Of a stretch of DNA of 64,000 bases, positions 10,587 through 55,988 are shown in pieces. The stretch is taken from IMG/VR virus record IMGVR_UViG_3300035492_000075. One strand, 5' to 3'. The DNA comes from a virus. Made by a program: the position numbers and the translations under genes. Positions within the stretch are counted from its first letter, which is position 1; each line of letters begins with the position of its first letter. The notes below the pieces were generated by a model, which was given only the letters and a program-made list of their open reading frames with translations, had not been told where the DNA came from and made no database searches.

Positions 10587-10598
10587 GGAACTGACATC

Positions 10599-22699: not shown

Positions 22700-23085
22700 G
22701 TTTCCTCCTTTTTGGAAATGTAGACCCAAGTGTAGGGCATTTCGTACAGCAACTCAAGTACTTTCGAAGGAATCACAAGAATCTTCTTATGGATAGCACG
22801 GTAGTTGCCAATGGTGTATTCGTTATCACCACTTTCGTGGCGGATGATAGGGAAGAAGTAACCTTCCAGTTCATCAGCCAGCGCGTCAGTAGCAATTGCG
22901 CTGATTTTGTTCTGATCGTCGAACAAATCGATGTAGAAAATTTTTTTATACGTCCCGGTTACCTCACCAAAGAGGATGTCTTCACCGGAAATCGCTGGTT
23001 TGGGGATAGACCCAATTGGTTGCTCATGAAGCAACGCCATGAGCCGCCCCCAGAGTACGTGTAGTAGATTAGTCGCTGTTGTCAT
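22693..23085 (-). CDS. hypothetical protein
   Basis: 130-aa ORF with an ATGA overlap with the helicase stop. Confidence 0.6.
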   Translation of the reverse strand: MTTATNLLHVLWGRLMALLHEQPIGSIPKPAISGEDILFGEVTGTYKKIFYIDLFDDQNKISAIATDALADELEGYFFPIIRHESGDNEYTIGNYRAIHKKILVIPSKVLELLYEMPYTWVYISKKEETC

Positions 23086-24455
23086 TTTTTCTTTCCTCGT
23101 GTTTGGCCGGTGCGTAGTGCCATATCCAATTTCTTCTTAGCGGACATGGTGTCTTCTCCCTCTGGCTCTGATGCTTTTTTCCCTCCCAGTTTCAGACCAG
23201 CAGGCGGTTTAGCAGTAGTCCCGTTATTCGGCTTATCAGAGATACGCAACGTGTGCGGACAACGATAGAGTATACGATTCTTCGTAGTCTTTCCACCGTT
23301 TCGAATCTTCATCTGAACAGCCTGAACTTGGTTGTTGTCGATGTCCTCGTCCGTAGCAACGAGACCAACGCCCCAGTCCGCTGCGTTGATAACACTGATA
23401 CCACCTGCAATGTGGTGTGGTGAGAGATTCACGACGTCATACCCATCTCGGTTAATCTGACCGGCAGAGAAGCCGTACATGTTGTACTCGTCAAGAATGT
23501 CTTTTAGACCAAACACCTTGCGCTCATCCTCATCGAATTTGTTCATGTCGCGACGCATACCAGAAGAATCAGCACCCATCAGTCCGAGGTAGTCAACTAT
23601 CAGGTAATCTGGTGCTTTACCATACAGGAGGATGTACTCCATCACAACACTACGAATCATACTCGGTGTTGTACCAAAGCGCATCTTTTTAGTCAGGATT
23701 CGACCATACCCCTTCTCGCTTCTCAGAACACTCAGACTTTGAGCAATCTCGGATGCGAGTAGTTTGTGCTTACTGATGTCGTGCCCTGTCAGGATCGCAT
23801 CAAAGCGCTTGGAGTAAAGCTCTTCCCGTAGCTCAAGACTGATGACGATTCCATCGTACCCACGCTTAGAAAATCGCTCAGCGACGTTGGCGAGCATAAC
23901 AGACTTGCCACCGGCAGTTGCAGAGAAAAACAAACCCAGCTCAGCACGACGGACCTTGTTTACGAGCTCATCAATCGCATCGATACCGATACTGATCTCT
24001 TCTACGCCTTCGTCCATATTCTCGATGCGCAGTTGTGGGTCGACAAACAAATCGGTGCCGATGGTACTATCGAGTTTGATGAGAAGTGCCTCGCGCACTC
24101 GTTCGGAGATTCCATGCATGTTGCGGTCTTTCAGAAGCTCAACAGAGTCAATGATTGCCGCTTCCATCGCAGAGTCCTGACACAGCGCCTCGATCTCGTC
24201 AAGTAAATACTGCTCATCCCCCGGTTCAAGCTCACGGTTCTTCAGCTTAACACCCAACTCAGCATCAATCACGTCCATCGCTGGGATGCTATGATATTGT
24301 TCAAAATGATCGAGAACAAAATCCACCACCTCATCGAGCGGAGGTTCAAAGTACGACCCTTTAAGAATCCTAAAACACCGTATGAACGATGGTCTGTGTG
24401 TTAACAGAGTCTCCAACAAGAGCTTCTGTTTTTTATTGATTACGTCGGTAGCCAT
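23082..24455 (-). CDS. gp41: replicative DNA helicase (DnaB/T4 gp41-like)
   Basis: Walker A FSATAGGKS, IVDYLGLM and SAGQINRDG motifs. ATG 24455 follows an AAGGAG SD. Confidence 0.9.
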   Translation of the reverse strand: MATDVINKKQKLLLETLLTHRPSFIRCFRILKGSYFEPPLDEVVDFVLDHFEQYHSIPAMDVIDAELGVKLKNRELEPGDEQYLLDEIEALCQDSAMEAAIIDSVELLKDRNMHGISERVREALLIKLDSTIGTDLFVDPQLRIENMDEGVEEISIGIDAIDELVNKVRRAELGLFFSATAGGKSVMLANVAERFSKRGYDGIVISLELREELYSKRFDAILTGHDISKHKLLASEIAQSLSVLRSEKGYGRILTKKMRFGTTPSMIRSVVMEYILLYGKAPDYLIVDYLGLMGADSSGMRRDMNKFDEDERKVFGLKDILDEYNMYGFSAGQINRDGYDVVNLSPHHIAGGISVINAADWGVGLVATDEDIDNNQVQAVQMKIRNGGKTTKNRILYRCPHTLRISDKPNNGTTAKPPAGLKLGGKKASEPEGEDTMSAKKKLDMALRTGQTRGKKK

Positions 24456-24456
24456 T

Positions 24457-25401
24457 TTACTCCTTTTCCGCCCATAGATTATACCGCACCCTCCCCTCAA
24501 GGTGGTTGCTCGTTGTGTTTTCACTGATCATTTGCATGGCAGCAACTTTGCCATACTTCACAACCGCCTCGTTGAGGTCTTTACAGTCCCATGGTGGGAT
24601 ACAGAGTTCCCATCCATAGCTCGCGAACTGGTCAACGAACTTACATTTACCAGATCGGTCTGGAAGCATTATAACACGTTTCCCTTTCAGAAAAAATGCT
24701 TGCTCCTTCGAAACTTTGTCACCGAGGCACCCAACCGCAAACGGTAGGCTCCGTGCATCGACCGTCCCCTCAACAACGATAGCAATATCCCTTACCCGTC
24801 TCTCGGGCATGTACAGGACATGTGTGTTTCCGTCATAAATGGACACATACTTTCGTTTGGCGACGACATGAAACCCGATCAATCTGCTGCCAGAATACAT
24901 CGCAATCGCAAACAACCCGGCATACTGCCCACGCTCTATAACAAAAATATCATTCGTCCCGACACAGCGTCGTTCAGACCACTCAACAACCCGTTGTTTT
25001 AAATCATCATCTCTGCTTTCCTCGAACGGTATAAACCCTTCGGGAACCTTAATGGCGTGATAACCATGCTTAGTGTATAGGTGCGAGTCTTGGTCTTCCA
25101 TCAACGCCATGAGACCGCTTTTCTTCTTGACTGTCAGAAGATCGATGGGGATTTTTATGTTCATGGTCTGCATCAGGTGTTTGAAGCGCTTCGACGTGTA
25201 TTCACCTAGCTTCATTCCACATGTTGCATCACATTTCCCACGGAAACAGTTGTACCTGATCTCGTCTTCAGTAAAGAAGAAACCACCAGTGCGTGTGCGC
25301 TTCTCACCACAAACAGGACAAAAACAACTATACCACCCGGTGTTCTCCTGTCGATCCAGATGCAGTTGGATGTTTGATTTAAGCGTATCGAAACTATTCA
25401 T
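24457..25401 (-). CDS. gp61: DNA primase (T4 gp61-like, Zn finger + TOPRIM)
   Basis: CFCPVCGEKR...CFRGKC zinc ribbon and VVEGTVDARSL TOPRIM motif. Confidence 0.85.
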   Translation of the reverse strand: MNSFDTLKSNIQLHLDRQENTGWYSCFCPVCGEKRTRTGGFFFTEDEIRYNCFRGKCDATCGMKLGEYTSKRFKHLMQTMNIKIPIDLLTVKKKSGLMALMEDQDSHLYTKHGYHAIKVPEGFIPFEESRDDDLKQRVVEWSERRCVGTNDIFVIERGQYAGLFAIAMYSGSRLIGFHVVAKRKYVSIYDGNTHVLYMPERRVRDIAIVVEGTVDARSLPFAVGCLGDKVSKEQAFFLKGKRVIMLPDRSGKCKFVDQFASYGWELCIPPWDCKDLNEAVVKYGKVAAMQMISENTTSNHLEGRVRYNLWAEKE

Positions 25402-25819: not shown

Positions 25820-26158
25820 ATGCAACACATAAAATTGCTTGACGAGATTCAACTTAAAGACCGTGTATTGACTGGTGTGGTTGATTACGTCACGACCAAA
25901 AATATTATTTTTTACGACATCTCTATGAATGATGATCCAGAAGTAATCAAACTACTACTCATGTGGCGAATGTTCTATACACATATGCGTTTCTCTGTTT
26001 TCAAAGAACTGTTTTTCGCTCATGTCTCAATGCGCAAACCAAACCTTGTAAACAGGAAGAAGATTGTTCACCCAAGCTTCCAGAAAATCGACAAGCCATC
26101 TCGTACTGTGCGTCGACTCACCAAGAAACAACTTGCTGCTGCAACCGACACAGAATAG
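25820..26158 (+). CDS. hypothetical protein (lone plus-strand ORF in the minus-strand block)
   Basis: 112-aa ORF with a GGAGA SD. The 3' end overlaps the convergent gene by 41 nt. Confidence 0.45.
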   Translation: MQHIKLLDEIQLKDRVLTGVVDYVTTKNIIFYDISMNDDPEVIKLLLMWRMFYTHMRFSVFKELFFAHVSMRKPNLVNRKKIVHPSFQKIDKPSRTVRRLTKKQLAAATDTE

Positions 26159-26705
26159 CTGCTATCATAACTGCGTAAGAGACTGCGTGTGATTTTTTGA
26201 AGTATACCCCACTCCGTGGTCTCTTGTACAGAATTCTTCGAACCCCTTCCCTATCTGCTCGATATTCGTCCACCAGATGCGCTTTACCGGGTCGGATTAG
26301 TGCCAAGCAATCAGCTAGCTCGATTATCGAGGTAGGCTCGATATCCTGTATGAGATCGTAATGTGTTGAAATATGGGGCAGCTTTGAAACTATATCACGC
26401 CTGCGTAGGAGACTCCATTCTGGTTCTTCTTCTAACGCAGCCAACAAGTCATCCTTGTTTTTGAATATGTCGTAACTGGTGTTTGTTAGGATGTCGACCT
26501 TGAGCAGGTCCATAGCATCACCATCCTTATAGTCTATAGCTGCATTACCAGTCATATGATCCACTGGGACACGCTGTATGTATACACCTGATGGGTGAGG
26601 CAGGACTTTGCCTGCCTCGGCATTGTACACCATCGCACGGGTGCCATAAGCTGTACGTTCGACCCCACTTTGAACGTCGATGTCTACGTCAAATATTCGA
26701 CTCAT
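26118..26705 (-). CDS. DNA polymerase III alpha-like fragment B (catalytic palm/finger remnants)
   Basis: FDVDIDV, HPSGVYI, LLKVDIL, LALIRPG and YFKKSHAVSYA line up, in order, with PolIIIalpha motifs PDFDxDF, HAGGVxI, KxDFLGL, RPGP and FNKSHxAAYA. Confidence 0.6.
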   Translation of the reverse strand: MSRIFDVDIDVQSGVERTAYGTRAMVYNAEAGKVLPHPSGVYIQRVPVDHMTGNAAIDYKDGDAMDLLKVDILTNTSYDIFKNKDDLLAALEEEPEWSLLRRRDIVSKLPHISTHYDLIQDIEPTSIIELADCLALIRPGKAHLVDEYRADREGVRRILYKRPRSGVYFKKSHAVSYAVMIAAILCRLQQQVVSW

Positions 26706-27160
26706 CACTTAACCAAGTAAAAGTTCACTTCTTCGATCACATCATCAAACTTTGAGATCATCACAGACTTGACAGCGTTTCGCATGCTCCTACCATTGAG
26801 AAATTCTGTCAAGTAGAAAAGCGCCAGTAGTGCTTCCTGTCTGTCCTCATCATTATCATTTGTCTTTTCTAGGATAGCCTTCGCTTGAGCTACCATAGAT
26901 TCCTTCGAACAGATACCGTTCTTGGCATATTCGGTGACTGTGTTGAACATGATCTGAGACGCGGCTAGCGCTGTTTCTTTTTCCAGCCTGACAACACACT
27001 CGAATGCATCCCGCAATCGGGAGTTACTGTAGGCCGTCTCATGGTAGAAGAAATTATGGTCAGGCCACTCATCGACGGCGATATACAATTCTTTCAGGAT
27101 AGAAGCCTCATATTCATCAAGAGGCTTCTTCTCTGTGTTTTTGCACTCACTTAAAGACAT
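26705..27160 (-). CDS. hypothetical protein
   Basis: 151-aa ORF with a TGATG overlap with the upstream stop. Confidence 0.6.
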   Translation of the reverse strand: MSLSECKNTEKKPLDEYEASILKELYIAVDEWPDHNFFYHETAYSNSRLRDAFECVVRLEKETALAASQIMFNTVTEYAKNGICSKESMVAQAKAILEKTNDNDEDRQEALLALFYLTEFLNGRSMRNAVKSVMISKFDDVIEEVNFYLVK

Positions 27161-27873
27161 CAGCCTTTAATCCCCAATCCTTTCTCTTCTAAAGTATTAA
27201 CCAGTTCCATGATCCGGTTCTGGTAGTCAACAGGAAGCCGGTTCATACGCCCATCGAAGTCTGGGTGGTTCATTGCCAACCAGTAGATGCTGATCTTCGC
27301 TTTCTCAATCGACCGAATGAAGAACAGGTCATCGCTTTCGAGCTCGTCTTTAAAGCGTTCAAAGAACTTAGCCGATCCCATGAGGTCGCAGGAATGGGAG
27401 AACAGACGAAACTCACGCATGCTCTGTTCTTCGATGCCAACCTTCAGGAGGGTAGGAAGGTTAGTCAGGTTTTTGATTTGGTTGAGCCAATCAAGATACG
27501 CCAGAACGTCGGTGATCTCGTGTAGGGTACAGAACATCGACAGACGCACGAACTGATTGTAAAACTTGCTCTTGATGAACGTCTTCAGGCTGATGCGAGC
27601 CTTTGGGTTCACTTCACTGATGACATCCTTGTAAAGCTGATACGCTCGCAGTTCAGTCAAAGTGCCCTTTGCAACGTCGCGCAGTGTGTGGCAATTCTTC
27701 TGAGCGAAGTGGCGCTCCAATGCCCAGAACTTTGCAAACGTTTTACCACACACAGGGCATAGGTTGATCCCGTTCTTCAGTGGTACCAACGTGACGTCAT
27801 ACATCGCGTCAACCGAGTTCATGATCTTCAGGTCAGACGCGGTTTTTGATACATCATTTTTCACTTCTTGCAT
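27160..27873 (-). CDS. hypothetical protein with C2H2-like zinc finger
   Basis: LCPVCGKTFAKFWALERHFAQKNCH. ATG 27873 follows GGAGAATAAA. Confidence 0.6.
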   Translation of the reverse strand: MQEVKNDVSKTASDLKIMNSVDAMYDVTLVPLKNGINLCPVCGKTFAKFWALERHFAQKNCHTLRDVAKGTLTELRAYQLYKDVISEVNPKARISLKTFIKSKFYNQFVRLSMFCTLHEITDVLAYLDWLNQIKNLTNLPTLLKVGIEEQSMREFRLFSHSCDLMGSAKFFERFKDELESDDLFFIRSIEKAKISIYWLAMNHPDFDGRMNRLPVDYQNRIMELVNTLEEKGLGIKG

Positions 27874-27874
27874 T

Positions 27875-28297
27875 TTATTCTCCATAAAGCTCTTTTAGCT
27901 CTTTGATATCATCTTCTGACATCATCGGTAGGATGTCTTTTGCTTGATCATACCCACATTCGTAATGTTTCGCCAGTTTTCTGATGATAGAATCTTCATT
28001 CTTACCAACAGACTTCACGAACTGGTATCTAGTCCTGTCGATTCCTGCGTTTGCCGTGATGAGCATCTTCAGAAGTAACCGAGGATGTGCAGAGAACGAA
28101 AAGACAAACTCATTAACGACTGCATCAGTCAGAAGCACATGAATCTCGTTGTTGTCGACGGCACCATTCATCCACATCAACAGAACGAACGGTGACAGAG
28201 ACTTCAACTGGTCGTCGGTGAGCCCATCAACAAAAGCATAATCGCCTTTGTTGATGGCATCAAATAGAGCGAACAAAGTATTATCACGAATCGCCAT
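27875..28297 (-). CDS. gp62: clamp loader small subunit (T4 gp62-like)
   Basis: Lies immediately downstream of the gp44-like gene (TAATG overlap). IIRKLAKHYECGYDQAKDI parallels gp62 IIKLLAKRYQVNTNDAINY. Confidence 0.6.
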   Translation of the reverse strand: MAIRDNTLFALFDAINKGDYAFVDGLTDDQLKSLSPFVLLMWMNGAVDNNEIHVLLTDAVVNEFVFSFSAHPRLLLKMLITANAGIDRTRYQFVKSVGKNEDSIIRKLAKHYECGYDQAKDILPMMSEDDIKELKELYGE

Positions 28298-29214
28298 TAT
28301 TGCTCCATGAAGAGTTGATAGACAAAGGCATCCAGATGCAGACGTTGGTTGGCACAGCGTTGTGCGCGATCAAGGTACTGTGACAGAGAAATAATCGCAG
28401 CATCCGTGTCGAGGTTCTTCACATTCTGGATGTTTGTGTACACCGCTTCGTAGTAGGCATCGTAGTTGCTCCCGTCTACGCCCGCAGTGAGCTGTAGGAG
28501 CGTTTCTTTGTCTACTTCTGACGAAGACCAAGCTTCGACCCATTCGTCCAGTGACGAGCCTTTCACGGCGTTCTGGAGAGCTGTGACCTGTTTGAACTCG
28601 TTGGTGTGCTCGTCAATACTGTTGATGATCTTGCGCAAGTCAGGTGCATACGCCTCAACGTGAGACATCAGATCGTGTTCATCGAGCACTTCGAGTCCTT
28701 CCTTCTCAACGATGTCGCAAATCAGATCGAGGATACCGTCGAGGTTCACAGCACCCATGATAATCGTCTGGAAGCGGCTATGCAGTGCAGGGGTTATCTG
28801 TTTCGGGTTGTTGGCGGTCATAATAAACCTGACACCGTCGCTATACTCTTCGATGATGTCACGCAGCGCATCTTGTGTTTGGCGGGTCAGGCGATCAGCC
28901 TCTTCCATCAGGACGATCTTAAAACCACCCATGGAGATTTTTTTCATCCACGGCTCCAGTTCTTCACGGATGAACCCGATCCCGTTCGTCAGTGAACCGT
29001 TGATGCGCTTCAGGTCAGATGGGTCAACATCGAGTTCGTTGATCAGGATTCGTGCTAGTGTTGATTTCCCACAACCGGGCGAACCTGTGAACAGCAGATT
29101 GGGGATTTCCCCATCTTTGAGCCATTTGGTTACTTTGTCTTCAGTCGTTTTGTCCTGAAAGACGTAACCCTTGATGGTATTTGGGCGGTATTTTTCAACC
29201 AGCAGTTTCTTCAT
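28297..29214 (-). CDS. gp44: clamp loader large subunit (RFC/T4 gp44-like AAA+)
   Basis: KYRPNTI, Walker A GSPGCGKST, Walker B-like MEEADRL and sensor-like TANN motifs. Confidence 0.9.
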   Translation of the reverse strand: MKKLLVEKYRPNTIKGYVFQDKTTEDKVTKWLKDGEIPNLLFTGSPGCGKSTLARILINELDVDPSDLKRINGSLTNGIGFIREELEPWMKKISMGGFKIVLMEEADRLTRQTQDALRDIIEEYSDGVRFIMTANNPKQITPALHSRFQTIIMGAVNLDGILDLICDIVEKEGLEVLDEHDLMSHVEAYAPDLRKIINSIDEHTNEFKQVTALQNAVKGSSLDEWVEAWSSSEVDKETLLQLTAGVDGSNYDAYYEAVYTNIQNVKNLDTDAAIISLSQYLDRAQRCANQRLHLDAFVYQLFMEQ

Positions 29215-39497: not shown

Positions 39498-39502
39498 AGT
39501 CC

Positions 39503-46263: not shown

Positions 46264-46488
46264 TTACTCCGTTTCGTCTTTTTTGATAGAACCGTACACT
46301 ACGATTCCAGAAGGCTTCACGGTAGCAGTACCACGACCGCGTGTCAACACCACCGGCTCATCTTCCGAGCGGGACTGGATAGTCCAGCCCTCTCGAATGA
46401 GCCCATCGATGATTTTTCGCAGAGCGACAAAGCGCCCTGACTGGCTTCGACGTTCAGTCGAACCCGAAGAGGTCTCTTTTGATTGCAT
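46264..46488 (-). CDS. small hypothetical protein
   Basis: ATG 46488 follows an AAGGAAG SD. Overlaps the 3' end of the polymerase gene by 35 nt. Confidence 0.45.
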   Translation of the reverse strand: MQSKETSSGSTERRSQSGRFVALRKIIDGLIREGWTIQSRSEDEPVVLTRGRGTATVKPSGIVVYGSIKKDETE

Positions 46489-47365
46489 CTCGTCTTCCTT
46501 TGGCATCCCACTCAAGGGACGCAAGATAGTTTTCAATTTTCTTCTTGGCTTTTAGCCATTCCGTCGCATAGTCAATCTTGAACTCGTCGAACCAGTCTGG
46601 AAAGACTGTCATATCAATCGGGAACGCAATGTACTTGCTCTTCGGATGTTTGATGTACACCAGACCAACCTTTTCACCCGGCATGATCTGCTTGTCCAGT
46701 TTACCACAGTTCTCGTTCCAGAACATAGTAGCTCGTACCTGATACGGGAAACCTTTCATCGACCCCGTCATGGCATAGGCATCCTGACAGCGCTTCAGCG
46801 TCTTGACGTTGATTGGCTTGGCAATCTCGATAGCGCTGAACTCTTCAAACGAACGACGCATCTTCTGAACCTCATCCAACACATAATCCATATCATAACC
46901 GTCAAGAATCATATCCACCAGCTTACGGAGAATCTGTTTAATCGCCTTGGATGTGTCGGACTTCTTGAGCTCAACACCCATGATCTTCATCTTGTCGACG
47001 CGCTTTCCTTCAGAGTCGACAACATGCATGATGTAACGCTTCTTCGTCAGGAACAGAGCCTTGTCGAATACTACCTCGCGATCCGTCTTTACCGTCCCCT
47101 TACGAGACTCAGGCGTGTTGAATGCTCGAACACAGAAGTCTGGGAATGCTTCATTGGTCAGATTACCGATCTCGTCTGCCACAGCCACGATATCGTCAAG
47201 TGAGTCGTCTTCTCCGACGACACTGTTCAAGGTCAGCATGATCGAGTCAGTATCACCAGCAATCGCATGCTTCAGCGGTAACTGATCCCACACATACCCT
47301 TCTTTGGGGTCGTCTCTCCAACCCCATACCACGTTTGTCTCTTCAAAATCGATCATATCAGTCAT
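46454..47365 (-). CDS. gp43: family B DNA polymerase, C-terminal cistron (palm motif C + thumb; gp43B-like)
   Basis: Contains AGDTDS (motif C) and a C-terminal DLFGFD clamp-binding-like tail. ATG 47365 has its own GGAGG SD 9 nt upstream. Confidence 0.85.
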   Translation of the reverse strand: MTDMIDFEETNVVWGWRDDPKEGYVWDQLPLKHAIAGDTDSIMLTLNSVVGEDDSLDDIVAVADEIGNLTNEAFPDFCVRAFNTPESRKGTVKTDREVVFDKALFLTKKRYIMHVVDSEGKRVDKMKIMGVELKKSDTSKAIKQILRKLVDMILDGYDMDYVLDEVQKMRRSFEEFSAIEIAKPINVKTLKRCQDAYAMTGSMKGFPYQVRATMFWNENCGKLDKQIMPGEKVGLVYIKHPKSKYIAFPIDMTVFPDWFDEFKIDYATEWLKAKKKIENYLASLEWDAKGRRDAIKRDLFGFD

Positions 47366-49094
47366 TTGCCAGTGCCTCCACATACGAGTTTGCTTTGTAT
47401 GCTTGGAATTTACTAATCACCTGACCGGTCAGAGTAATACTCTTCGCCAGACGGATGTCGTAGAGGCGGAAGTGCGCGTTACTGATACATCCATACAGCG
47501 AGTTACAAATAATCTTCATCACGCTCTGATAGAGGTTATTGATGTTTGCTTCATCTTCGTCACCCCGCTCTTCTGCCTCCTTCTTCATCCGCTGGTACAT
47601 CTTACGGGTGTCGAATCTGTCTTTGACGTATACAGACAACAAGCCGAATTCACCACTGAAGAGAGTGCCATTCGCAGAGATACACCAGCCGTTCTCAATG
47701 ATAATATCATAGAGTGCGCTAGCATTGCATTCGATGTGATCGGTGACTTCCCCATCAATGATCTGATCAAGAATAACCATTGTGTCTTTCTTGGTCATTA
47801 CAGCGATATAATCTTTGTATCCGCCGTTGAGCTGCCCAACCATCGTCTCTGTGGAGAGTCCGAGCATCATCATGGCACTGGGGTACAGAGCAGTCAAGTC
47901 GACCGTAAAGCCCCATTTGTGAAGCCCTGAAATGGTGTCATAAACGATAGCACCCTCAAACTTCTCCTTCTCACTACCAGTCTTGTCAGCCAACACAACC
48001 CCACGGCTATGGCAGAACTTCAGGAAGCCCATTTCAATCGGCTTTACAGAACCAACTACGTCTCGGGCGAACACACTGTTCATGCGAGACAGGGTTACTG
48101 CCAGACGAATGATCTGGTGCTTACGGTCAAGGTACAGTAACAGACGAGCGTCGTGGATACCGTATTCAAAGAAGAGGTCAGGGTTCTCGCGGTAGAGCTC
48201 ACCAAGGTCACCCTCGTAGTCAACCTTGTCAATACCCAAGTCTTCAGTACAGACGGCACTGAGGCTGAACGAAGTCTTCTCAGACGGGATGAACTTCTTG
48301 TAGAGCTCAAGCATATCAAGATGCTGTCTACCAACAAGTGTCCATTCGACACGCTCTTCGGCATTATCATTGATAAACTCACGCTTCTTGGCTTTGAAGC
48401 CATCGCGACAGAACATGCGGAGCGCGTCTTTCTCTCCGAACTCCATGATCGCCCGTTCCATGATATACGGTAAGTCGAAGCCGTTGGTATACCAACCCGC
48501 CATGATGTCAACATCACGCTCTTCCAGCATGTCTGCAAGTGTTTCGAGTAGCTCACGTTCATCACGACACGAGATGGTCACGACAGGATACTCACCGTAC
48601 TTGTCGGTTACCTTCACCTTAGCTTCATCGAGCTTCAAGATGAGATACTCTTGACGCTTGGTGTCAAAAGCTTGGAACGAGTTAATGTACCCGTATGGGT
48701 TTTGTGGTGATGGGTATCCGTTTCCGTCGTTCAGGTCAAAGAAGACCTCGATATCATACAGGAAGACGTTATAGGGAGCATCCAAAGGGGCAGCAGCGTA
48801 TGTGTCGATGAGGCATTTGTACGTCGGTGATACGTCGCTTTCATAGAGTGACTGCCTGCTGTCAACGAATTTATTGAAAGTCCAGCGATCTTCAAAGTTC
48901 ATGCGTTTGAGGGGACGACCGAAGAGGTCTTTCGCATCCGGGTTACCGCTGTTGTCTAGCTGGTAGCAGTACAGGTATTTGGAGATGGGGTGAGTCTCGA
49001 CAATCAACTCCCCATCTTTGTCGCGGCACCACACAGTCAACTCGTCTGAGGTGGCTACTGCGTCAATATAGTTGTAGTTCATGAAACTCTCCAA
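47358..49094 (-). CDS. gp43: family B DNA polymerase, N-terminal cistron (exonuclease, motif A and B; gp43A-like)
   Basis: Exo motifs (FLYDIEV), motif A VDLTALYPS and motif B KIICNSLYG. Ends 25 aa after motif B. Confidence 0.9.
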   Translation of the reverse strand: MESFMNYNYIDAVATSDELTVWCRDKDGELIVETHPISKYLYCYQLDNSGNPDAKDLFGRPLKRMNFEDRWTFNKFVDSRQSLYESDVSPTYKCLIDTYAAAPLDAPYNVFLYDIEVFFDLNDGNGYPSPQNPYGYINSFQAFDTKRQEYLILKLDEAKVKVTDKYGEYPVVTISCRDERELLETLADMLEERDVDIMAGWYTNGFDLPYIMERAIMEFGEKDALRMFCRDGFKAKKREFINDNAEERVEWTLVGRQHLDMLELYKKFIPSEKTSFSLSAVCTEDLGIDKVDYEGDLGELYRENPDLFFEYGIHDARLLLYLDRKHQIIRLAVTLSRMNSVFARDVVGSVKPIEMGFLKFCHSRGVVLADKTGSEKEKFEGAIVYDTISGLHKWGFTVDLTALYPSAMMMLGLSTETMVGQLNGGYKDYIAVMTKKDTMVILDQIIDGEVTDHIECNASALYDIIIENGWCISANGTLFSGEFGLLSVYVKDRFDTRKMYQRMKKEAEERGDEDEANINNLYQSVMKIICNSLYGCISNAHFRLYDIRLAKSITLTGQVISKFQAYKANSYVEALAND

Positions 49095-51764: not shown

Positions 51765-52852
51765 CACTTGATTCTCGTTTTGAGACGTTCCCAATGCCCA
51801 GAGAATAGCGGGTTGGAAATAATACTCACGCCTACCCGAATTGAGCTTCTTACCGCTCGAAAGAACACAATGAACATCTCGTCTTGGAGCTGATTTGCAA
51901 TCTCAGCGTATCCTGTTAGATCGGTACACGAGTCGTTCTCGACGACATCGATCAGTTCTACGGCAAGACCAGTGGCGACCCCAAATTCGATAGCCGGTTC
52001 TTCACGCGGGATTTTGTACTCATACGTTGGGTCATTGCTTCGCACACGAGACCAGTCAGGTAGTTTCGATGCGAACTTCATATAGGCGCAGAAGTTTGCA
52101 CCGACTACGCTACCAACACATCCAAGTGTTGCGTCGTAGAACTCATCACTGTCATACTCACTCTCGGAGAACATCTCCATGATACCACTCAGCAACTCCC
52201 ATGTTCGAGGAACAGCGCTGGTGATAGAGTCATCATTCGATCCAACGAAGTAGATGTGGTCCCTCTTCCACGAGCAATAACCGATGATGTGCGGGTTTAG
52301 CTTTCGGTCGATGGCGTATGGGATGAACGTGTTTTTCGCCGACTCAGGATCGATAACCATGTGAACAGCGAAACGAGTAGCCATTGCGACTGACAGTTCC
52401 CGAGCACCAGTCTTATCGGTTCTCATATTGCCAGCGGCGACGATTATCACATTGTCCGGCAGCTTTTTACCGTTCTGAAGCTTTCGGTCGAGAATCAACG
52501 CGAAAGATGCAACCAGCGTATCCGGTAGCGCATTTTTCAGCTCGTCGAAGAAAATGATAGTAGGACGTTCACCGGTAGGGAACCATGTATGAGTGGAAAA
52601 GAACTGAGAACCCTCCCATACATACGGAAGACCAAGTACAGCAGAGGCATCAACACCAGCGAGGCGTACATCGATAAAATCAGCGCCGATCTCTTCTGCT
52701 ACCTCTCGAACGATCTGGCTTTTACCCAAAGCAGGAGCACCATGGATGAACACATTCTTCCAACCACGGTCTGGGTTTGCTAGCTGGTGTTTGGCAATGC
52801 GACGAAACAGGTTCTTCGCTCTTGCGATGTCAATCTTATGATATTCAGCCAT
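51764..52852 (-). CDS. MoxR/CbbQ-like AAA+ ATPase
   Basis: Walker A HGAPALGKSQ and Walker B IIFFDEL, an AAA_5-type layout. Confidence 0.85.
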   Translation of the reverse strand: MAEYHKIDIARAKNLFRRIAKHQLANPDRGWKNVFIHGAPALGKSQIVREVAEEIGADFIDVRLAGVDASAVLGLPYVWEGSQFFSTHTWFPTGERPTIIFFDELKNALPDTLVASFALILDRKLQNGKKLPDNVIIVAAGNMRTDKTGARELSVAMATRFAVHMVIDPESAKNTFIPYAIDRKLNPHIIGYCSWKRDHIYFVGSNDDSITSAVPRTWELLSGIMEMFSESEYDSDEFYDATLGCVGSVVGANFCAYMKFASKLPDWSRVRSNDPTYEYKIPREEPAIEFGVATGLAVELIDVVENDSCTDLTGYAEIANQLQDEMFIVFFRAVRSSIRVGVSIISNPLFSGHWERLKTRIK

Positions 52853-53166
52853 TACAGACCTCGAAGCCTTTCTAGATCAGCAGCAGGAATAACATCCAAG
52901 TAGTGAGACTTGGAATCGTAAACAAGGTATTGATTCTCGATATTAAGCTCGTTTCGAGTAAAGTACCCATCCTCGCCGTCAGCCTGACAACCTGCTACAG
53001 GACCAACAATCTTGTATACACCAGACTTGAGTGGTGTGGCAAGCTTCGCTGTTTTAAATGCTTCCTTGGTACTGACGCCTTCATCGGTGTTGAATATGTC
53101 GACTACCCCAAGGGATTCGTTTCCTGTGTCTACACAAGACAACCGTGTGTAAAGTCTGCGACTCAT
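52852..53166 (-). CDS. hypothetical protein
   Basis: 104-aa ORF with a GAGGAG SD and a TAATG overlap downstream. Confidence 0.6.
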   Translation of the reverse strand: MSRRLYTRLSCVDTGNESLGVVDIFNTDEGVSTKEAFKTAKLATPLKSGVYKIVGPVAGCQADGEDGYFTRNELNIENQYLVYDSKSHYLDVIPAADLERLRGL

Positions 53167-53169
53167 TTG

Positions 53170-53454
53170 TCACTCCTCGATGATAGCCATGATTTCTTTC
53201 TCAGCGGTAACACCGTACTCCTTCTTGGAGCTTTCCAGTGCGAACGGCGGTGTGATACGTTTCCATGATGCCAGTACGGTGTTACCGACCTTTACGTACT
53301 TCACATCGGGGCCAACCGCGATCACTGTGAAGTTCTGCATGTCGTTCTGACTGATGTCTTCCTTGTAGAAGATAGTAGAACCACTCGCTTCGTGGTGGGG
53401 TTTCAGCTTCAGAAGTACATCGGCGTTCATTGGTCGAAATGTTTCAGGGTTCAT
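53170..53454 (-). CDS. GroES/Cpn10-like co-chaperonin
   Basis: 94 aa. PMNADVLLKLKP...FTVIAVGPDVKYVKVGNTVL...EKEIMAIIE is colinear with GroES. Confidence 0.7.
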   Translation of the reverse strand: MNPETFRPMNADVLLKLKPHHEASGSTIFYKEDISQNDMQNFTVIAVGPDVKYVKVGNTVLASWKRITPPFALESSKKEYGVTAEKEIMAIIEE

Positions 53455-53475: not shown

Positions 53476-53504
53476 ATCGTACAGGAACGAGGACTATGTG
53501 TCAA
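53476..53504 (-). promoter_or_regulatory. sigma70-like promoter TTGACA-N17-TACGAT
   Basis: Minus-strand hexamers at 53504-53499 and 53481-53476. The -35 element overlaps the stop of the upstream gene. Confidence 0.5.
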
Positions 53505-54034
53505 TAATCATTGTCGTCGATTTTAGTAAGCTCAATGAAAGGAATGTCATATTTGACAGGGTCGATGTCATTGATCTCTAGGAGGTAGCATACCAGAGAC
53601 GCACAGGAACTTCCACGCCCAACACCCCACACCACACCATTTTCCTTAAATTTCTGTATAACGTCGGAAGTTCGTAATAGAAAAATTGTGTTCTGTTTCT
53701 TTTGAAAATATGTAAGCTCTTGTTCAAGCCTTTCAATGTACGCTGGGTTGTCACTGAAACGCGGGGAAGCCTCTATCCGAGAAACAAGCAGTTCAAACGC
53801 TTCGTCTTCGTTGATGTGCACATCTTCATACTCAGGCTCAGGAGACGTGAGAATGTCCTTGTGGTACAAAGTTTGGTAGACTTCCCCATCATACCCCTCC
53901 ACATCGTCGTCGATGATCATCCAATCAATGCTTCTACCACGGATGATATTCTCAGCCATGGTATCTGCTGTTACTAAACTGTACCCATTTTCAAGAAGGA
54001 TACGGCGTCTTGCCTCGTCTAGATACTCTCTCAT
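53501..54034 (-). CDS. DNA polymerase III alpha-like fragment A (N-terminal palm segment)
   Basis: YIERLEQEL..F...FLLRTSDVIQKFKENGVVWGVGRGSSCASLVCYLLEINDIDPVKYDIPF parallels PolIIIalpha RLxxEL...YFLIV...GPGRGSAAGSLVAYxLxITxxDP...LxFERF. Confidence 0.65.
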   Translation of the reverse strand: MREYLDEARRRILLENGYSLVTADTMAENIIRGRSIDWMIIDDDVEGYDGEVYQTLYHKDILTSPEPEYEDVHINEDEAFELLVSRIEASPRFSDNPAYIERLEQELTYFQKKQNTIFLLRTSDVIQKFKENGVVWGVGRGSSCASLVCYLLEINDIDPVKYDIPFIELTKIDDNDY

Positions 54035-54510
54035 ACGAAGAATATTTCAAAAGTCTTGTCTTTCATTTTGTTGTGCTGGTCGATGCTACTAACCAGAATG
54101 ATACCGCCACAGTCATTGGAAGTTACCGGGATGGGTGCTTTGTCCTTGGACATGGGGAAGTAGCACTTACCGTCTTTTCGGTAATCTCTCAGTGCGATAT
54201 CGTTCAGTGTCCATGTACGAAGGTTCTTCGATATGGTCAAGACTTGAATATCGCGACCGATTAGTTCATCAATCATAATCCAGTCAATGTTTCCATCAGG
54301 ACAGGAACATAGGATGTATGTCCCAGCCGGAATATCGAATGATAGTTCACCGATGCGAACATTGAAGAAGTCGCCCTCGATAACATCCCAAGTATACTGG
54401 TATCGTAGCATATAGTCTTCGTCTTCGATGGAAAACTCAAATATTTGTGTATCGACGCAGCCAGCCGTCTTCGACGATACTGGGTTCATATCCTCATCAA
54501 TAAAGTTCAT
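54031..54510 (-). CDS. hypothetical protein
   Basis: 159-aa ORF with a GAGGA SD and an ATGA overlap with the downstream PolIIIalpha-like fragment. Confidence 0.6.
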   Translation of the reverse strand: MNFIDEDMNPVSSKTAGCVDTQIFEFSIEDEDYMLRYQYTWDVIEGDFFNVRIGELSFDIPAGTYILCSCPDGNIDWIMIDELIGRDIQVLTISKNLRTWTLNDIALRDYRKDGKCYFPMSKDKAPIPVTSNDCGGIILVSSIDQHNKMKDKTFEIFFV

Positions 54511-54527: not shown

Positions 54528-55988
54528 TCAAACAATGATGTTGCTTGTTCCTTCAGTATACTCGTAATGCTCTTCCCTGTAAATAGCCAATCGCTCTCTT
54601 CTGTGCTTTTTAGCAAAAGGATTGTTTGATGAAACATCAACCACCTCAACCTCATCAACCACACCATCGCGACGAAGTCCACGACCGATGCCCTGCATGA
54701 TGTACGTGTAGTTCTTACCCACGTCGATCAGGTACAGGCGGAAGATTCGGTTGGATGAGATACCAGTACCAGAAGTTCCGAACGTAGCACAGAACATGTG
54801 ATCGTCCATATCATCGAACTTGGCGAACAGATCGTCTCGAACTTCGGACTTCGTCTCGTCCACGATCAGCCCAACGCCAAGGTAATCAGACATCAACTTA
54901 CCAAGACCAGCGTGACATAGAATCAGCGTGTTTTTTGGGTCTTGCTTATGACGGGTTTCAATGAAGTCCGCGATAGCCTGAATTCGCTCGGAATTAGAAA
55001 GGTTATAGTCTTCTTCTATTGACCAGTCAAAGTCTTTACCAAGCGCGTCGATCACACCTTCGATCTCAGCATGCTTTGTTACAACCATCTCAATCTTCAT
55101 AGCACTGGAGATACCGCGTTCCATAAGCTCTTTCTGTTTGACAGTACGCAGGATGCCACCACCCAAGTGAGCCATAATCTTGTTGCGTTTGAACGGATCA
55201 GCCTTCACCTTCGGAATGGAGCCAGACATACCAAGGCGAACAGGGCAGTGTCCCATGTCGAAGCGAAGCATATCGGCGAAAACGTCGCCAAACGTGTGAA
55301 TTTCATCAACCATAATTACCCATTGGCAGTTTGCAAACTCTTTGACACAGTTCATGAACAGCTTGTTGGTGATGATGATGTGGCGGGCGTTCTGAATGAA
55401 CTTCTTCCGATCAGCAGGCTTGGTTTTAGCCGTGAGGACAGCAGCGTTCAGGTTCGTCTTAGCGTAGTCAGCATATGTCTGCTTAGCGAGCTTCTCAGTA
55501 GGAACGATCACAACACTTTTGATGAATGGGTCGTAAACCTTTGAGATACCGACACAAATCCACGACTTACCACCGTTTGTGCCAACATCGAACAGACCCA
55601 TGCGATTGTTTATCGCTGCGTTGATACAGTCGACCTGATAGTCGCGTAGGTGGTGTCCAGACTCTTCAAGCAGGAACGATGAATCGATCTCCTTGATATC
55701 GGGATTGAATGGTTCTTGCTCTACGATCAGGTCGATGTCTTCGTCGAGGTCGTACCCAAGGCGCTCAACATTGTCAAGAACCTTATCCAGCTCATAGATG
55801 AATCCAAGGCCAGACTCATCGAACAGACTCTCCCTGCCATCCCAAATCTTTGCTTTATATGCAGCCGTAGTGAAGCAGCCTTTGACGAAGATACCGGTGT
55901 TGTCGCGAATAAAATCAATATCCTTACGACGCAGGCCAGCCAGTTCAAAGTTTACATGGTCATGGATTGTAAGCTGGAGTTCTTTCAT
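54528..55988 (-). CDS. uvsW: SF2 DNA/RNA helicase (T4 UvsW-like)
   Basis: LRDYQ, GTNGGKS (motif I), MVDEIHTF (motif II), and C-terminal helicase motifs TFGTSGTGIS and QGIGRGLR. Confidence 0.85.
   Translation of the reverse strand: MKELQLTIHDHVNFELAGLRRKDIDFIRDNTGIFVKGCFTTAAYKAKIWDGRESLFDESGLGFIYELDKVLDNVERLGYDLDEDIDLIVEQEPFNPDIKEIDSSFLLEESGHHLRDYQVDCINAAINNRMGLFDVGTNGGKSWICVGISKVYDPFIKSVVIVPTEKLAKQTYADYAKTNLNAAVLTAKTKPADRKKFIQNARHIIITNKLFMNCVKEFANCQWVIMVDEIHTFGDVFADMLRFDMGHCPVRLGMSGSIPKVKADPFKRNKIMAHLGGGILRTVKQKELMERGISSAMKIEMVVTKHAEIEGVIDALGKDFDWSIEEDYNLSNSERIQAIADFIETRHKQDPKNTLILCHAGLGKLMSDYLGVGLIVDETKSEVRDDLFAKFDDMDDHMFCATFGTSGTGISSNRIFRLYLIDVGKNYTYIMQGIGRGLRRDGVVDEVEVVDVSSNNPFAKKHRRERLAIYREEHYEYTEGTSNIIV

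What the first reader, a model, noticed from the sequence alone, without database searches (positions are those of the whole stretch)
53501..54034. PolIII-alpha-like fragment A: the palm segment ending where fragment B begins, with no intein halves
The C-terminal 80 aa (YIERLEQEL...FLLRTSDVIQKFKENGVVWGVGRGSSCASLVCYLLEINDIDPVKYDIPFIELTK) track the PolIIIalpha segment immediately upstream of the PDFDxDF catalytic motif. The ORF then stops at ...IDDNDY*.

The catalytic motif itself opens the ORF at 26705 (MSRIFDVDIDV), on the same strand 27 kb downstream. Cyanobacterial DnaE is split and rejoined by a split intein. Here neither end shows intein blocks, so any assembly would be non-covalent. There is no PHP domain; about 100 aa of unknown sequence precede the palm segment.
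Basis: partly seen in the sequence, partly recalled or inferred. Interest (0 to 1): 0.7.

Follow-up and report, generated by a model that had tools for sequence, protein, structure and literature searches.

The report
Split minimal Pol III alpha, N-half
This 177-residue phage gene is the front half of a stripped-down bacterial-type DNA polymerase whose back half, holding the catalytic aspartates, is a separate gene 27 kb away; the arrangement is real and conserved but was already described in 2021 for T4-like jumbo phages.

Summary
ORF 53501-54034 (-), 177 aa, matches Pfam PF07733 (E 7e-17). Its residues 95-173 align to E. coli Pol III alpha 317-395, including the invariant GRGS nucleotide-binding loop. 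It stops about 4 residues before the position of the catalytic DxD.

ORF 26118-26705 (-), 195 aa, opens with that motif. D6/D8 correspond to E. coli D401/D403 and D71 to D555. It also carries minimal fingers motifs (RPGK, KKSHA).

Models of both halves hit only C-family polymerases in the PDB. There are no intein, PHP, thumb, clamp-binding or C-terminal domains.

Both halves are stable stand-alone families of about 175 and 195 aa. They co-occur on one strand, 2.6-34 kb apart, in every complete relative I checked and in 32 of 80 viral contigs.

Two rare end-to-end fusions (375 and 336 aa) join exactly at the break point. They nest among split forms, which argues that the halves work as one enzyme.

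This is the "split minimal DNA polymerase III alpha" of group 2.2 jumbo phages (Iyer et al. 2021), seen here in a lineage whose named relatives have about 141 kb genomes. It is a new member of a known kind. Activity has not been shown.

The parts
53501..54034 (-). Fragment A: N-terminal (nucleotide-binding) half of the split minimal Pol III alpha, 177 aa
   Evidence: PF07733 E 7e-17. phrog_11127 (171-position profile, 'DNA polymerase') E 9.5e-19. Residues 95-173 align to E. coli alpha 317-395. AlphaFold pLDDT 90.6, and the top 17 PDB fold hits are all DnaE or PolC. The 120 best homologues are all 116-199 aa.
53609..53620 (-). GRGS loop of A (G139-R140-G141-S142), equivalent to E. coli 361-364, the glycine-serine phosphate-binding loop of the Pol-beta-like nucleotidyltransferase fold
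   Evidence: Invariant in 54 family members. Position mapped from the hhalign register and the DNA sequence.
53840..54034 (-). N-terminal ~65 aa of A: a small beta/alpha module (strands 4-6, 11-13, 19-21, 39-41; helices 23-31, 43-57) with invariant G17; no counterpart identified
   Evidence: Secondary structure and conservation. The module is absent from the fused protein P0368. It is weak or absent in many A-type ORFs in IMG/VR, where the HMM match starts at position 25-60.
26118..26705 (-). Fragment B: C-terminal (catalytic aspartates plus minimal fingers) half, 195 aa from the ATG at 26705 (an alternative GTG lies at 26708)
   Evidence: phrog_11778 E 2.7e-48. PF17657 fingers E 1.2e-4 here, and 43 of 48 homologues match it. 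AlphaFold pLDDT 92.8. The top 14 PDB fold hits are all Pol III alpha, followed by a cliff in score. The 120 best homologues are all 171-215 aa.
26676..26690 (-). DVDID motif of B (D6, D8, D10), equivalent to E. coli D401, D403, D405
   Evidence: D6 and D8 are invariant and D10 is conserved in at least 90% of 48 homologues. The E. coli sequence PDFDVDF was read. The window DNA was read.
26493..26495 (-). D71 of B (within KVDIL), equivalent to E. coli D555 (within KFDFL), the third catalytic aspartate
   Evidence: Invariant. E. coli sequence read. Only 62 residues separate D8 from D71, against 152 in E. coli, so there is no thumb domain.
26283..26294 (-). RPGK motif of B (R138-K141), equivalent to E. 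coli ALFRPG (~636-641), fingers
   Evidence: R138, P139 and K141 are invariant. Alignment to E. coli residues 615-654.
26184..26198 (-). KKSHA motif of B (K170-A174), equivalent to E. coli FNKSHS (~755-760), fingers
   Evidence: K170 and H173 are invariant. Alignment to E. coli residues 753-767.
54031..54510 (-). 159-aa ORF translationally coupled to A (ATGA overlap); function unknown
   Evidence: It is 36% identical to the ORF at the same position in Alishewanella phage Slicko01. It is not conserved in RsoM2USA or RaK2. Context only, not a universal partner of A.
54528..55988 (-). UvsW-type DEAD/ResIII helicase heading the gene string that contains A
   Evidence: Pfam ResIII and DEAD. A helicase lies upstream of A in the same position in Slicko01 and RsoM2USA. 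In RaK2 uvsW sits instead about 3 kb upstream of B.
26705..29214 (-). Tightly packed gene string ending at B: RFC-type clamp loader (28297-29214), its small subunit (27875-28297), a zinc-finger ~240-aa protein (27160-27885) and a 151-aa ORF (26705-27160)
   Evidence: ORF overlaps seen. Weak clamp-loader hit to phrog_225. The same gene order occurs in Slicko01 and RsoM2USA. No minus-strand terminator-like site lies between the RFC gene and B, and one lies just upstream at 29233-29254.
23082..25401 (-). Primase (24457-25401) and DnaB-type helicase (23082-24524) downstream of B
   Evidence: Pfam DnaB_C. Zinc-finger motifs of the primase ORF are visible in the translation. Primase and helicase are annotated in this order downstream of B in RaK2, and a primase/helicase gene in Slicko01.
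46454..49094 (-). Family B DNA polymerase (itself in two ORFs), the presumed main replicase that co-occurs with the split Pol III alpha
   Evidence: PF00136 and PF03104. phrog_262 positions 7-565 of 856 on ORF 47358-49094 and positions 574-844 of 856 on ORF 46454-47383.

Best explanation
ORF 53501-54034 encodes the N-terminal subunit of a two-subunit, drastically reduced C-family (Pol III alpha / DnaE-type) DNA polymerase. It belongs to the 'split minimal DNA polymerase III alpha' family already described in T4-like group 2.2 jumbo phages.

Subunit A (177 aa) supplies the palm helices and the GRGS loop that holds the triphosphate of the incoming nucleotide. Subunit B (26118-26705, 195 aa) supplies the beta-strands carrying the three metal-binding aspartates and a cut-down fingers module (RPGK, KKSHA).

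The break falls inside the Pol-beta-like nucleotidyltransferase core, between E. coli positions ~395 and ~396. Neither protein alone has a complete active site.

What is shown:
- the homology, the conserved catalytic residues and the exact junction;
- the absence of inteins;
- co-occurrence and same-strand synteny inside the replisome gene cluster;
- rare natural fusions at the junction.

What is inferred:
- the two proteins associate non-covalently to rebuild the catalytic domain;
- the complex is an active, probably low-processivity, accessory DNA polymerase working beside the phage family B polymerase (primer extension, repair, or recombination-dependent synthesis).

My confidence that this is a member of that family is about 0.9. 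My confidence that it is an active heterodimeric polymerase is about 0.6.
For: Homology of A:
- PF07733 E 7e-17; PDB phmmer E 1.8e-10; hhalign probability 97%.
- Fold search top 17 hits are all C-family polymerases.

Homology of B:
- phrog_11778 E 2.7e-48 and phrog_405 E 6.9e-6.
- PF17657 matches 43 of 48 homologues.
- Fold search top 14 hits are all Pol III alpha, at probability 0.95-1.0.

Catalytic residues are invariant: GRGS in 54 A proteins; D6, D8, D71, R138, P139, K141, K170 and H173 in 48 B proteins. They were mapped onto E. coli D401, D403 and D555.

Both families have stable sizes: A 116-199 aa and B 171-215 aa.

Co-occurrence on one strand:
- Slicko01 11 kb apart, Xoo-sp13 14 kb, XacN1 15 kb, RsoM2USA 4.2 kb.
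- A RaK2-like genome has exactly one A and one B, 34 kb apart.
- In 32 of 80 IMG/VR loci found with B, A lies 2.6-9.2 kb upstream on the same strand.
- In 14 of 80 loci found with A, B lies 3.1-9.3 kb downstream.

Fusions: P0275 (375 aa) matches the A profile over residues 4-185 and the B profile over 187-374. P0368 (336 aa) is likewise fused. Both nest among stand-alone B proteins in a neighbour-joining tree.

Context: the window carries a family B polymerase, UvsW-type helicase, RFC, primase, DnaB-type helicase, gp32-like SSB and UvsX-like RecA. This matches group 2.2 as described in PMC7824862.
Against: - No biochemical or genetic test of this family turned up in the library searched.
- Sequence-only evidence for B against solved structures is weak (profile E 0.5; hhalign probability 20%). 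B's assignment rests on PHROG and Pfam hits, motif register and the fold search.
- The enzyme lacks thumb, PHP, clamp-binding and OB domains, so whether it can hold a primer-template is uncertain.
- Many A-type ORFs in IMG/VR have no B within 10 kb, so strict co-occurrence is shown only for complete genomes and for part of the contigs.
Confidence: 0.75

Rival explanations
1. The two ORFs are decaying remnants of a once intact phage DnaE gene, broken up by rearrangement, and have no present function.
For: Only about 370 of the ~1160 residues of a cellular alpha subunit remain. PHP, thumb and the C-terminal domains are missing.
Against: Hundreds of homologues keep the same lengths, starts and stops. 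The catalytic and nucleotide-binding residues are invariant. Both fold with pLDDT above 90. The arrangement is shared by phages whose B proteins are as little as ~35% identical to this one.
Confidence: 0.02
2. The halves are joined covalently after translation (split-intein trans-splicing as in cyanobacterial DnaE) or at the nucleic-acid level (excision of the intervening DNA, or RNA splicing).
For: Cyanobacterial DnaE is a precedent for a split C-family polymerase (my own knowledge). The phage does carry an intein elsewhere, in NrdA.
Against: - Only 4-6 residues follow the homologous part of A and 5 precede the DxD of B. No intein or Hint model hits any of 102 family members.
- The 26.8 kb between the genes holds essential replication genes.
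- Across relatives the spacing varies from 2.6 to 34 kb, with A's stop and B's start retained.
Confidence: 0.02
3. A and B are homologous to Pol III alpha but do not form one enzyme. Each has been recruited to a separate job: for example B alone as a nucleotidyltransferase or DNA-binding factor, and A as a nucleotide-binding regulator or replisome adaptor.
For: The genes sit in different gene strings: A with the UvsW-type helicase and GroES, B with the clamp loader and primase. Many A-type ORFs have no B within 10 kb, and the A pattern matched more IMG/VR stretches than the B patterns did. A carries an extra N-terminal module of unknown role.
Against: The Pol-beta-like active site needs the GS loop (in A) and the aspartates (in B) together, from established knowledge of this fold. 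Both are invariant. Every complete genome examined has exactly one of each. Two independent natural fusions join them end to end at the ancestral junction. The IMG/VR count difference reflects the different search patterns used, not a fair census.
Confidence: 0.12
4. The complex assembles but is not a DNA polymerase. It acts as another kind of nucleotidyltransferase, for example untemplated tailing or synthesis of a signalling nucleotide used against host defence.
For: Thumb, clamp-binding and OB domains are missing and the fingers are shortened by about 85 residues between RPG and KSH. The window is rich in NAD/ADP-ribose and RNA-repair genes: NAPRTase, Macro, SLOG, RNA ligase.
Against: The retained fingers motifs (RPGK, KKSHA) match conserved motifs of the polymerase fingers domain. 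Both genes are embedded among replisome genes rather than among the counter-defence genes. The fused form P0368 is translationally coupled to a PF03090 'Replicase' gene.
Confidence: 0.09

Closest known systems
Split minimal DNA polymerase III alpha of group 2.2 (T4-like) jumbo phages, e.g. RaK2, PA5oct, XacN1, RsoM2USA (Iyer, Anantharaman, Krishnan, Burroughs & Aravind 2021, Viruses 13:63, PMC7824862)
   Same: Two stand-alone proteins, an N-terminal NTP-binding half and a C-terminal Mg2+/template-binding half. They are encoded by distant genes. No other Pol III domains are present. They sit alongside a family B polymerase, RFC clamp loader and UvsW-type helicase. The window's proteins fall in the same PHROG families (11127 and 11778) and hit those phages directly.
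   Different: The window's closest named relatives are ~141 kb Alishewanella phages, and the contigs carrying its closest B homologues are 142-161 kb. That is below the 200 kb jumbo threshold used by Weinheimer & Aylward (PMC9123017). Identity to the jumbo-phage proteins is only about 27-45%. The rare fused forms and the constant 'A upstream of B, same strand' rule reported here are not in the passages of that paper I read.
Cellular Pol III alpha (DnaE) and PolC, C-family replicases (E. coli 2HNH, Taq 2HPI, M. tuberculosis 5LEW, Geobacillus PolC 3F2B)
   Same: Same fold for palm and fingers. Same GS loop, aspartate triad and RPG/KSH motifs, in the same order.
   Different: 372 aa in two chains against ~1160 aa in one. 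No PHP domain and no thumb (62 against 152 residues between the second and third aspartate). Fingers truncated, with B ending at about E. coli 782. No clamp-binding motif, OB fold or tau-binding domain.
Cyanobacterial split DnaE joined by the naturally split DnaE intein
   Same: A C-family polymerase catalytic subunit encoded by two distant genes.
   Different: No intein halves here, so no peptide bond is formed. From memory, the cyanobacterial break lies much further along the protein (after about residue 774 of Synechocystis DnaE, in the fingers), whereas this one is in the palm, between the GS loop and the DxD strand.
Split family B polymerases of T4-like phages (gp43A/gp43B of Aeromonas phage Aeh1 type) and of some archaea
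   Same: A replicative polymerase delivered as two polypeptides that assemble without splicing. This same window has its PolB in two ORFs.
   Different: Those halves are adjacent genes. They are cut between domains of a family B enzyme, not through the catalytic core of a Pol-beta-like fold, and they are not tens of kilobases apart. The Aeh1 and archaeal precedents are from my own knowledge and were not checked here.

Membership tests
Split minimal Pol III alpha of T4-like (group 2.2) phages (Iyer et al. 2021) | N-terminal NTP-binding half and C-terminal Mg2+/template-binding half are separate stand-alone proteins | tested here: met
   A is 177 aa with the GRGS loop. B is 195 aa with the aspartate triad and fingers motifs. 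Homologues are all of the same sizes.
Split minimal Pol III alpha of T4-like (group 2.2) phages (Iyer et al. 2021) | The two halves are encoded by distantly located genes in one genome | tested here: met
   26.8 kb apart on the same strand. Relatives range from 2.6 to 34 kb.
Split minimal Pol III alpha of T4-like (group 2.2) phages (Iyer et al. 2021) | No other Pol III alpha domains (PHP, C-terminal modules) in the proteins or nearby | tested here: met
   No PHP or other Pol III Pfam hit in A, B or 102 homologues. tblastn of E. coli and phage DnaE against the whole window finds only A and B. The rest of the genome is not available.
Split minimal Pol III alpha of T4-like (group 2.2) phages (Iyer et al. 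2021) | Accompanied by a classic family B polymerase, RFC clamp loader, UvsW-type helicase and OB-fold SSB | tested here: met
   PolB 46454-49094, RFC 28297-29214, helicase 54528-55988, gp32-like SSB 20915-21913.
Split minimal Pol III alpha of T4-like (group 2.2) phages (Iyer et al. 2021) | Sequence membership in the same protein families as the jumbo-phage proteins | tested here: met
   phrog_11127 E 9.5e-19 and phrog_11778 E 2.7e-48. tblastn hits to RsoM2USA, Xoo-sp13, XacN1, PA5oct and the RaK2 group. The A and B HMMs each find one ORF in a RaK2-like genome.
Split minimal Pol III alpha of T4-like (group 2.2) phages (Iyer et al. 2021) | Host genome is a jumbo phage (over 200 kb) with gp23-type capsid and phage sigma factors | not testable with these tools
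   Only 64 kb is available, and the contigs carrying A are 61-66 kb. The closest named relatives are 141 kb, and contigs carrying the closest B homologues are 142-161 kb. The lineage is therefore probably sub-jumbo. No capsid or sigma-factor genes were looked for.
C-family DNA polymerase catalytic subunit (DnaE/PolC) | Pol-beta-like palm with GS loop and three catalytic aspartates | tested here: met
   GRGS 139-142 in A. D6, D8 and D71 in B. All invariant and in register with E. coli 361-364, D401, D403 and D555. They lie on two chains.
C-family DNA polymerase catalytic subunit (DnaE/PolC) | Fingers domain (PF17657) | tested here: inconclusive
   The window's B scores 21.9 bits against a cut-off of 22.0 and covers profile positions 53-104 of 166. 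43 of 48 homologues match at E <= 0.01. The fold search supports homology, but the domain is heavily shortened.
C-family DNA polymerase catalytic subunit (DnaE/PolC) | N-terminal PHP domain | tested here: not met
   No PHP hit. Only about 75 residues precede the palm in A.
C-family DNA polymerase catalytic subunit (DnaE/PolC) | Thumb domain between the second and third aspartate; clamp-binding, OB and tau-binding C-terminal modules; a single polypeptide | tested here: not met
   62 against 152 residues between the aspartates. B ends at about E. coli 782. Two polypeptides.
Split-intein DnaE (cyanobacterial type) | N-intein fused to the end of the N-half and C-intein fused to the start of the C-half | tested here: not met
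   Tails of 4-6 and 5 residues only. No intein or Hint Pfam hit at E <= 1 for A and B, nor at E <= 0.01 in 102 homologues. Positive control: the NrdA intein in the same window was detected.

The most novel reading that the evidence does not exclude
Building the active site from two separately encoded chains may be a control device. On this reading the polymerase exists only when both are made: the UvsW-helicase/GroES gene string carrying A, and the clamp-loader/primase string carrying B. The ~43 kDa heterodimer would then be a dedicated hand-off enzyme that extends primase products before the family B polymerase takes over, analogous to Pol alpha or to Bacillus DnaE working with PolC. It would be the smallest working C-family polymerase. 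The fused form sitting next to a PF03090 'Replicase' gene would be the same primer-extension module in a small replicon.
Probability: 0.12. Interest if true: 0.7.

Novelty: new member of a known kind. Interest (0 to 1): 0.35.

Why it matters
If the heterodimer is active, it is the smallest known C-family DNA polymerase, about 370 residues in all. It would also be a polymerase whose catalytic centre is assembled across a subunit interface.

That bears on how the bacterial replicase arose. Iyer et al. read the phage form as a model of the ancestral enzyme. It also bears on why T4-like phages that already have a family B replicase keep a second polymerase inside the replisome gene cluster.

This window adds three modest things. 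The system extends into a lineage whose known genomes are about 140-160 kb. The order 'A upstream of B on the same strand' is kept across viral contigs. Rare natural A-B fusions exist, which give ready-made single-chain constructs for biochemistry.

It does not open a new category.

Tried and rejected
- **Fused A+B structure prediction.** Alignments of the fused query with separate A and B homologues were misaligned by MAFFT (A3 and A5) and were not submitted. The subunit interface is therefore untested.
- **Profile of B against PDB sequences, and hhalign against E. coli or a phage DnaE.** Only weak local matches, E 0.5 to 1e-3. They were useful for register, not as proof. The fold search supplied the proof.
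- **Is the 159-aa ORF coupled to A, or the 151-aa ORF coupled to B, a further subunit?** The 159-aa ORF is conserved only in the Alishewanella phage, not in RsoM2USA or RaK2. The 151-aa ORF is not conserved even there. Rejected as universal partners.
- **Is RaK2 ORF120, in the syntenic position, the A half?** No. The real A of a RaK2-like genome lies 34 kb from B.
- **A proofreading partner.** ORF 56299-56745 gave a sub-threshold 3'-5' exonuclease hit (E 0.0075). It has no PHROG hit and no similarity to the RaK2 exonuclease subunit. Dropped.
- **Promoter and terminator scans around both genes.** Counts were no higher than in shuffled sequence, so nothing can be said about timing of expression.
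- **Megablast of 20 kb of the window against phage genomes.** No match. The phage itself is not in that collection.
- **Literature.** Searches for experimental work on this split polymerase, for the Alishewanella phages and for PA5oct expression data found nothing gene-specific. No supplement of the Iyer paper is held.
- **More fused relatives of P0368.** None were found.
Full report
**What is at the coordinates.** Window 53501-54034 on the minus strand is an ATG-started ORF of 177 codons ending ...KIDDNDY*. Its start overlaps the stop of a 159-codon ORF (ATGA). That ORF follows a UvsW-type DEAD/ResIII helicase gene (54528-55988). A GroES-like gene lies 46 nt downstream (53170-53454).

**Pol III alpha similarity of A.** The C-terminal part is clearly Pol III alpha-like.
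- Pfam PF07733 scores E 7.3e-17, with residues 96-166 on profile positions 20-90 of 260.
- phmmer against PDB sequences aligns residues 90-167 with E. coli alpha 312-389, E 1.8e-10.
- A profile of 54 family members aligns residues 95-173 with E. coli 317-395, probability 97%.
- E. coli residues 396-406 read RVSMPDFDVDF.

**The partner ORF (B).** ORF 26118-26705, on the same strand and 26.8 kb downstream, starts MSRIFDVDIDV. Its ATG overlaps the stop of the preceding ORF (TGATG).
- In an alignment of 48 homologues, D6 and D8 are invariant and D10 is nearly so. They correspond to E. coli D401, D403 and D405.
- D71 in KVDIL is invariant and lines up with E. coli K553-F-D555.
- Further along, ALIRPGK and FKKSHA match E. 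coli ALFRPG (~636-641) and FNKSHS (~755-760).
- Sequence evidence for B against solved structures is weak on its own (E 0.5; hhalign probability 20%; Pfam fingers 21.9 bits against a cut-off of 22).
- Other evidence is stronger. 43 of 48 homologues hit the fingers model. PHROG 11778 matches at 2.7e-48. The AlphaFold model (pLDDT 92.8) has Pol III alpha of Thermus, Mycobacterium and E. coli as its 14 best PDB matches, followed by a sharp drop to noise.
- The model of A (pLDDT 90.6) likewise hits only DnaE and PolC among its top 17.

**How reduced the enzyme is.**
- Together the two proteins have 372 residues, against 1160 for E. coli alpha.
- There is no PHP domain.
- Only 62 residues separate the second and third aspartate, against 152 in E. 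coli, so the thumb is absent.
- The stretch between RPG and KSH is about 85 residues shorter than in E. coli.
- B ends at about E. coli position 782, so the distal fingers, clamp-binding motif, OB fold and tau-binding domain are missing.
- tblastn of E. coli DnaE and of a full-length phage DnaE against the whole window finds nothing beyond A and B.
- The first ~65 residues of A form a small beta/alpha module with an invariant glycine. I could not relate it to anything.
PF07733 position 1 projects to about residue 77 of A, and Foldseek aligns 114 columns to E. coli 2hnh at 3.8 A.

**No covalent rejoining.**
- After the homologous region, A has 4-6 further residues. Before the DxD, B has five. 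A split intein of roughly 100 + 35 residues (sizes from memory) does not fit.
- No intein, Hint or homing-endonuclease model hits A or B at E <= 1, nor any of 102 homologues at E <= 0.01.
- The same search found the intein and LAGLIDADG domain in this window's NrdA (30843-35078), so the method works here.
- The DNA between the two genes holds replication and nucleotide-metabolism genes that cannot be an excised spacer.
- In relatives, A's stop and B's start are retained while the spacing varies widely.

**The split is old, stable and the halves travel together.**
- The 120 best database relatives of A are all 116-199 aa. Those of B are all 171-215 aa.
- In IMG/VR, all 80 best A loci and all 80 best B loci carry stand-alone ORFs: 114-230 aa and 189-226 aa, measured stop to stop.
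- Both halves occur in Alishewanella phages Slicko01 and Slickus01 (11 kb apart), RsoM2USA (4.2 kb), Xoo-sp13 (14 kb) and XacN1 (15 kb).
- A whole RaK2-like genome scanned with HMMs of both families has exactly one A and one B on the same strand, 34 kb apart.
- In 32 of 80 viral loci found with B, A lies 2.6-9.2 kb upstream on the same strand. It is never adjacent and never on the other strand.
- The converse search found B downstream of A in 14 of 80 loci. The rest are short contigs, or have the partner beyond the 10 kb fetched, as in this window.
- Gene order is shared with Slicko01 and RsoM2USA: helicase, x, A ... RFC, RFC small subunit, a zinc-finger protein of ~230-240 aa, (x), B. B is followed by primase/helicase genes in the window, Slicko01 and RaK2.
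- A GroES-like gene follows A in PA5oct as well.

**An unsplit version exists.** Searching 1.84 billion representative proteins with the B profile gave 409 hits. Nearly all of the best 150 are no longer than a stand-alone B, but two are not.
- P0275 (375 aa) matches the A profile over residues 4-185 (E 6e-27) and the B profile over residues 187-374 (E 1e-36). The sequence across the junction reads ...KEFIKDNKEGIYNIADFDIDT... and the DNA there has no gap.
- P0368 (336 aa, seen on two contigs) is also fused. It lacks A's N-terminal module, and its gene overlaps the end of a PF03090 'Replicase' gene.
- The joins fall exactly where the split family breaks.
- In a midpoint-rooted neighbour-joining tree of 111 B domains, the two fusions sit in different subclades, 12 and 6 nodes from the root. 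Each is closer to certain stand-alone B proteins than the family median.
- That points to two secondary fusions rather than ancestral relics. The tree has no support values, so this is only an indication.
- Either way, a fusion of two genes that are never neighbours is the classic sign that their products act together.
- P0368 has no other fused relatives, so the fused state is rare.

**Mechanism.**
- *Shown:* homology of both halves, the exact junction, conserved catalytic and nucleotide-binding residues, absence of inteins, co-occurrence, replisome context, and natural fusions.
- *Inferred:* the two chains associate non-covalently to rebuild the Pol-beta-like palm. The glycine-serine loop of A and the aspartates of B would face one nucleotide. 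The complex would be an accessory DNA polymerase working next to the family B enzyme.
- With no thumb and no clamp-binding motif, it would be expected to have low processivity. Short-patch roles fit best: primer extension after the adjacent primase, repair, or recombination-dependent synthesis with the adjacent UvsW-type helicase. None of this is tested.

**Comparison with what is known.** This is not new as a kind. Iyer et al. [quoted passage not shown] They found it next to a family B polymerase and suggested it cooperates in strand synthesis or repair.
- PHROGs already holds both halves as separate 'DNA polymerase' families.
- Weinheimer & Aylward (2022, PMC9123017) noted PF07733 as a marker of one marine jumbo-phage group.
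- I found no experimental study.
- The window meets every defining feature of the Iyer family that I could test. The exception is genome size, which cannot be read from 64 kb.
- Its closest named relatives are 141 kb, and contigs carrying its closest B homologues are 142-161 kb. The lineage is therefore probably below the jumbo threshold.
- It is not a canonical DnaE: PHP, thumb, C-terminal modules and the single chain all fail.
- It is not a split-intein DnaE.

**Verdict.** It is a new, sub-jumbo member of a published family.

This analysis adds four things:
- the residue-level junction;
- structure-based confirmation of the weakly scoring C-half;
- the same-strand, A-upstream rule across viral contigs;
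- the rare fused forms.

Interest is moderate. The biology is striking and still untested experimentally, but a specialist who knows the 2021 paper would not be surprised.

Noticed in passing
window 46454-49094 (-): The family B DNA polymerase is also in two ORFs that overlap by 26 nt. ORF 47358-49094 (578 aa) covers phrog_262 positions 7-565 of 856 (exonuclease plus the first part of the polymerase). ORF 46454-47383 (309 aa) covers positions 574-844. Separate PHROG families exist for such halves (phrog_2062 and phrog_1918), so this looks like a genuine split PolB rather than a sequencing frameshift. I did not check relatives.
   Followed up: partly
window 30843-35078 (-): A 1411-aa class I ribonucleotide reductase large subunit is interrupted by an intein with a LAGLIDADG homing endonuclease (Intein_splicing and LAGLIDADG_3 hits at about residues 783-980). 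It served as a positive control for intein detection.
   Followed up: partly
L175 1066-2193 (P0275) and L176 3171-4181 (P0368): Rare single-chain minimal Pol III alpha proteins (375 and 336 aa) join an A-type and a B-type half exactly at the break point. P0368 lacks A's N-terminal module and is translationally coupled to a 552-aa PF03090 'Replicase' gene on an 8 kb contig. Both nest among split forms in a neighbour-joining tree, so they are probably secondary fusions.
   Followed up: partly
window 50520-53454 (-): A is followed by a GroES-like gene (53170-53454), a 104-aa ORF, a MoxR-type AAA+ ATPase (51764-52852), a VWA/metallopeptidase protein (50520-51794) and a ClpP-like protease (49706-50530). 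ORFs of matching size, with an annotated metallopeptidase, follow A in Alishewanella phage Slicko01. A GroES-like 'chaperonin' also follows A in PA5oct. Whether the chaperone module has anything to do with assembling the split enzyme is unknown.
   Followed up: partly
IMG/VR loci L106, L107, L112, L122, L131, L133, L136-L142, L148-L153 and others: A large subgroup of stand-alone A-type ORFs (about 150-180 aa) matches the family HMM only from position ~25-60 onward, so the N-terminal module is missing or divergent. They have no B-type ORF within the 10 kb fetched downstream. Their partner may be farther away, more divergent, or absent.
   Followed up: no
PHROG 13169 and 7513; BFVD entries R9ZZ12 (Cellulophaga phage phiST, 525 aa) and A0A1J0MHX4 (Pseudomonas phage PA5, 466 aa): Some phages have 'DNA polymerase III alpha' proteins of ~460-525 aa. 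In the two ~460-position PHROG profiles the A-type core sits near the C-terminal end (positions 331-405 of 463). This suggests other phage DnaE genes are also broken near this point while keeping the N-terminal part.
   Followed up: no
window 35400-38850 (-): rIIA-like (36523-38850, 775 aa) and rIIB-like (35400-36569, 389 aa) genes lie between the two polymerase halves. This is consistent with a T4-like phage.
   Followed up: no
window 10599-12419 (+), 38886-40576 (-), 45702-46259 (-): There is a set of NAD/ADP-ribose and RNA-repair genes: NAPRTase (606 aa), a circularly permuted YpsA/SLOG protein, an RNA ligase with a PHA02142 OB domain, and a Macro domain protein. These are of the kind Iyer et al. 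link to counter-defence.
   Followed up: no
window 29233-29254 (-): A strong terminator-like hairpin (GAAAGCCC...GGGCTTTC followed by TTTTTT) lies just upstream of the RFC gene. No minus-strand terminator-like site lies between RFC and fragment B. This fits one transcription unit running from the clamp loader through B.
   Followed up: no
window 10437-11990 (-): A 517-codon ORF lies antisense to, and almost wholly inside, the NAPRTase gene. It is probably a non-coding shadow ORF.
   Followed up: no
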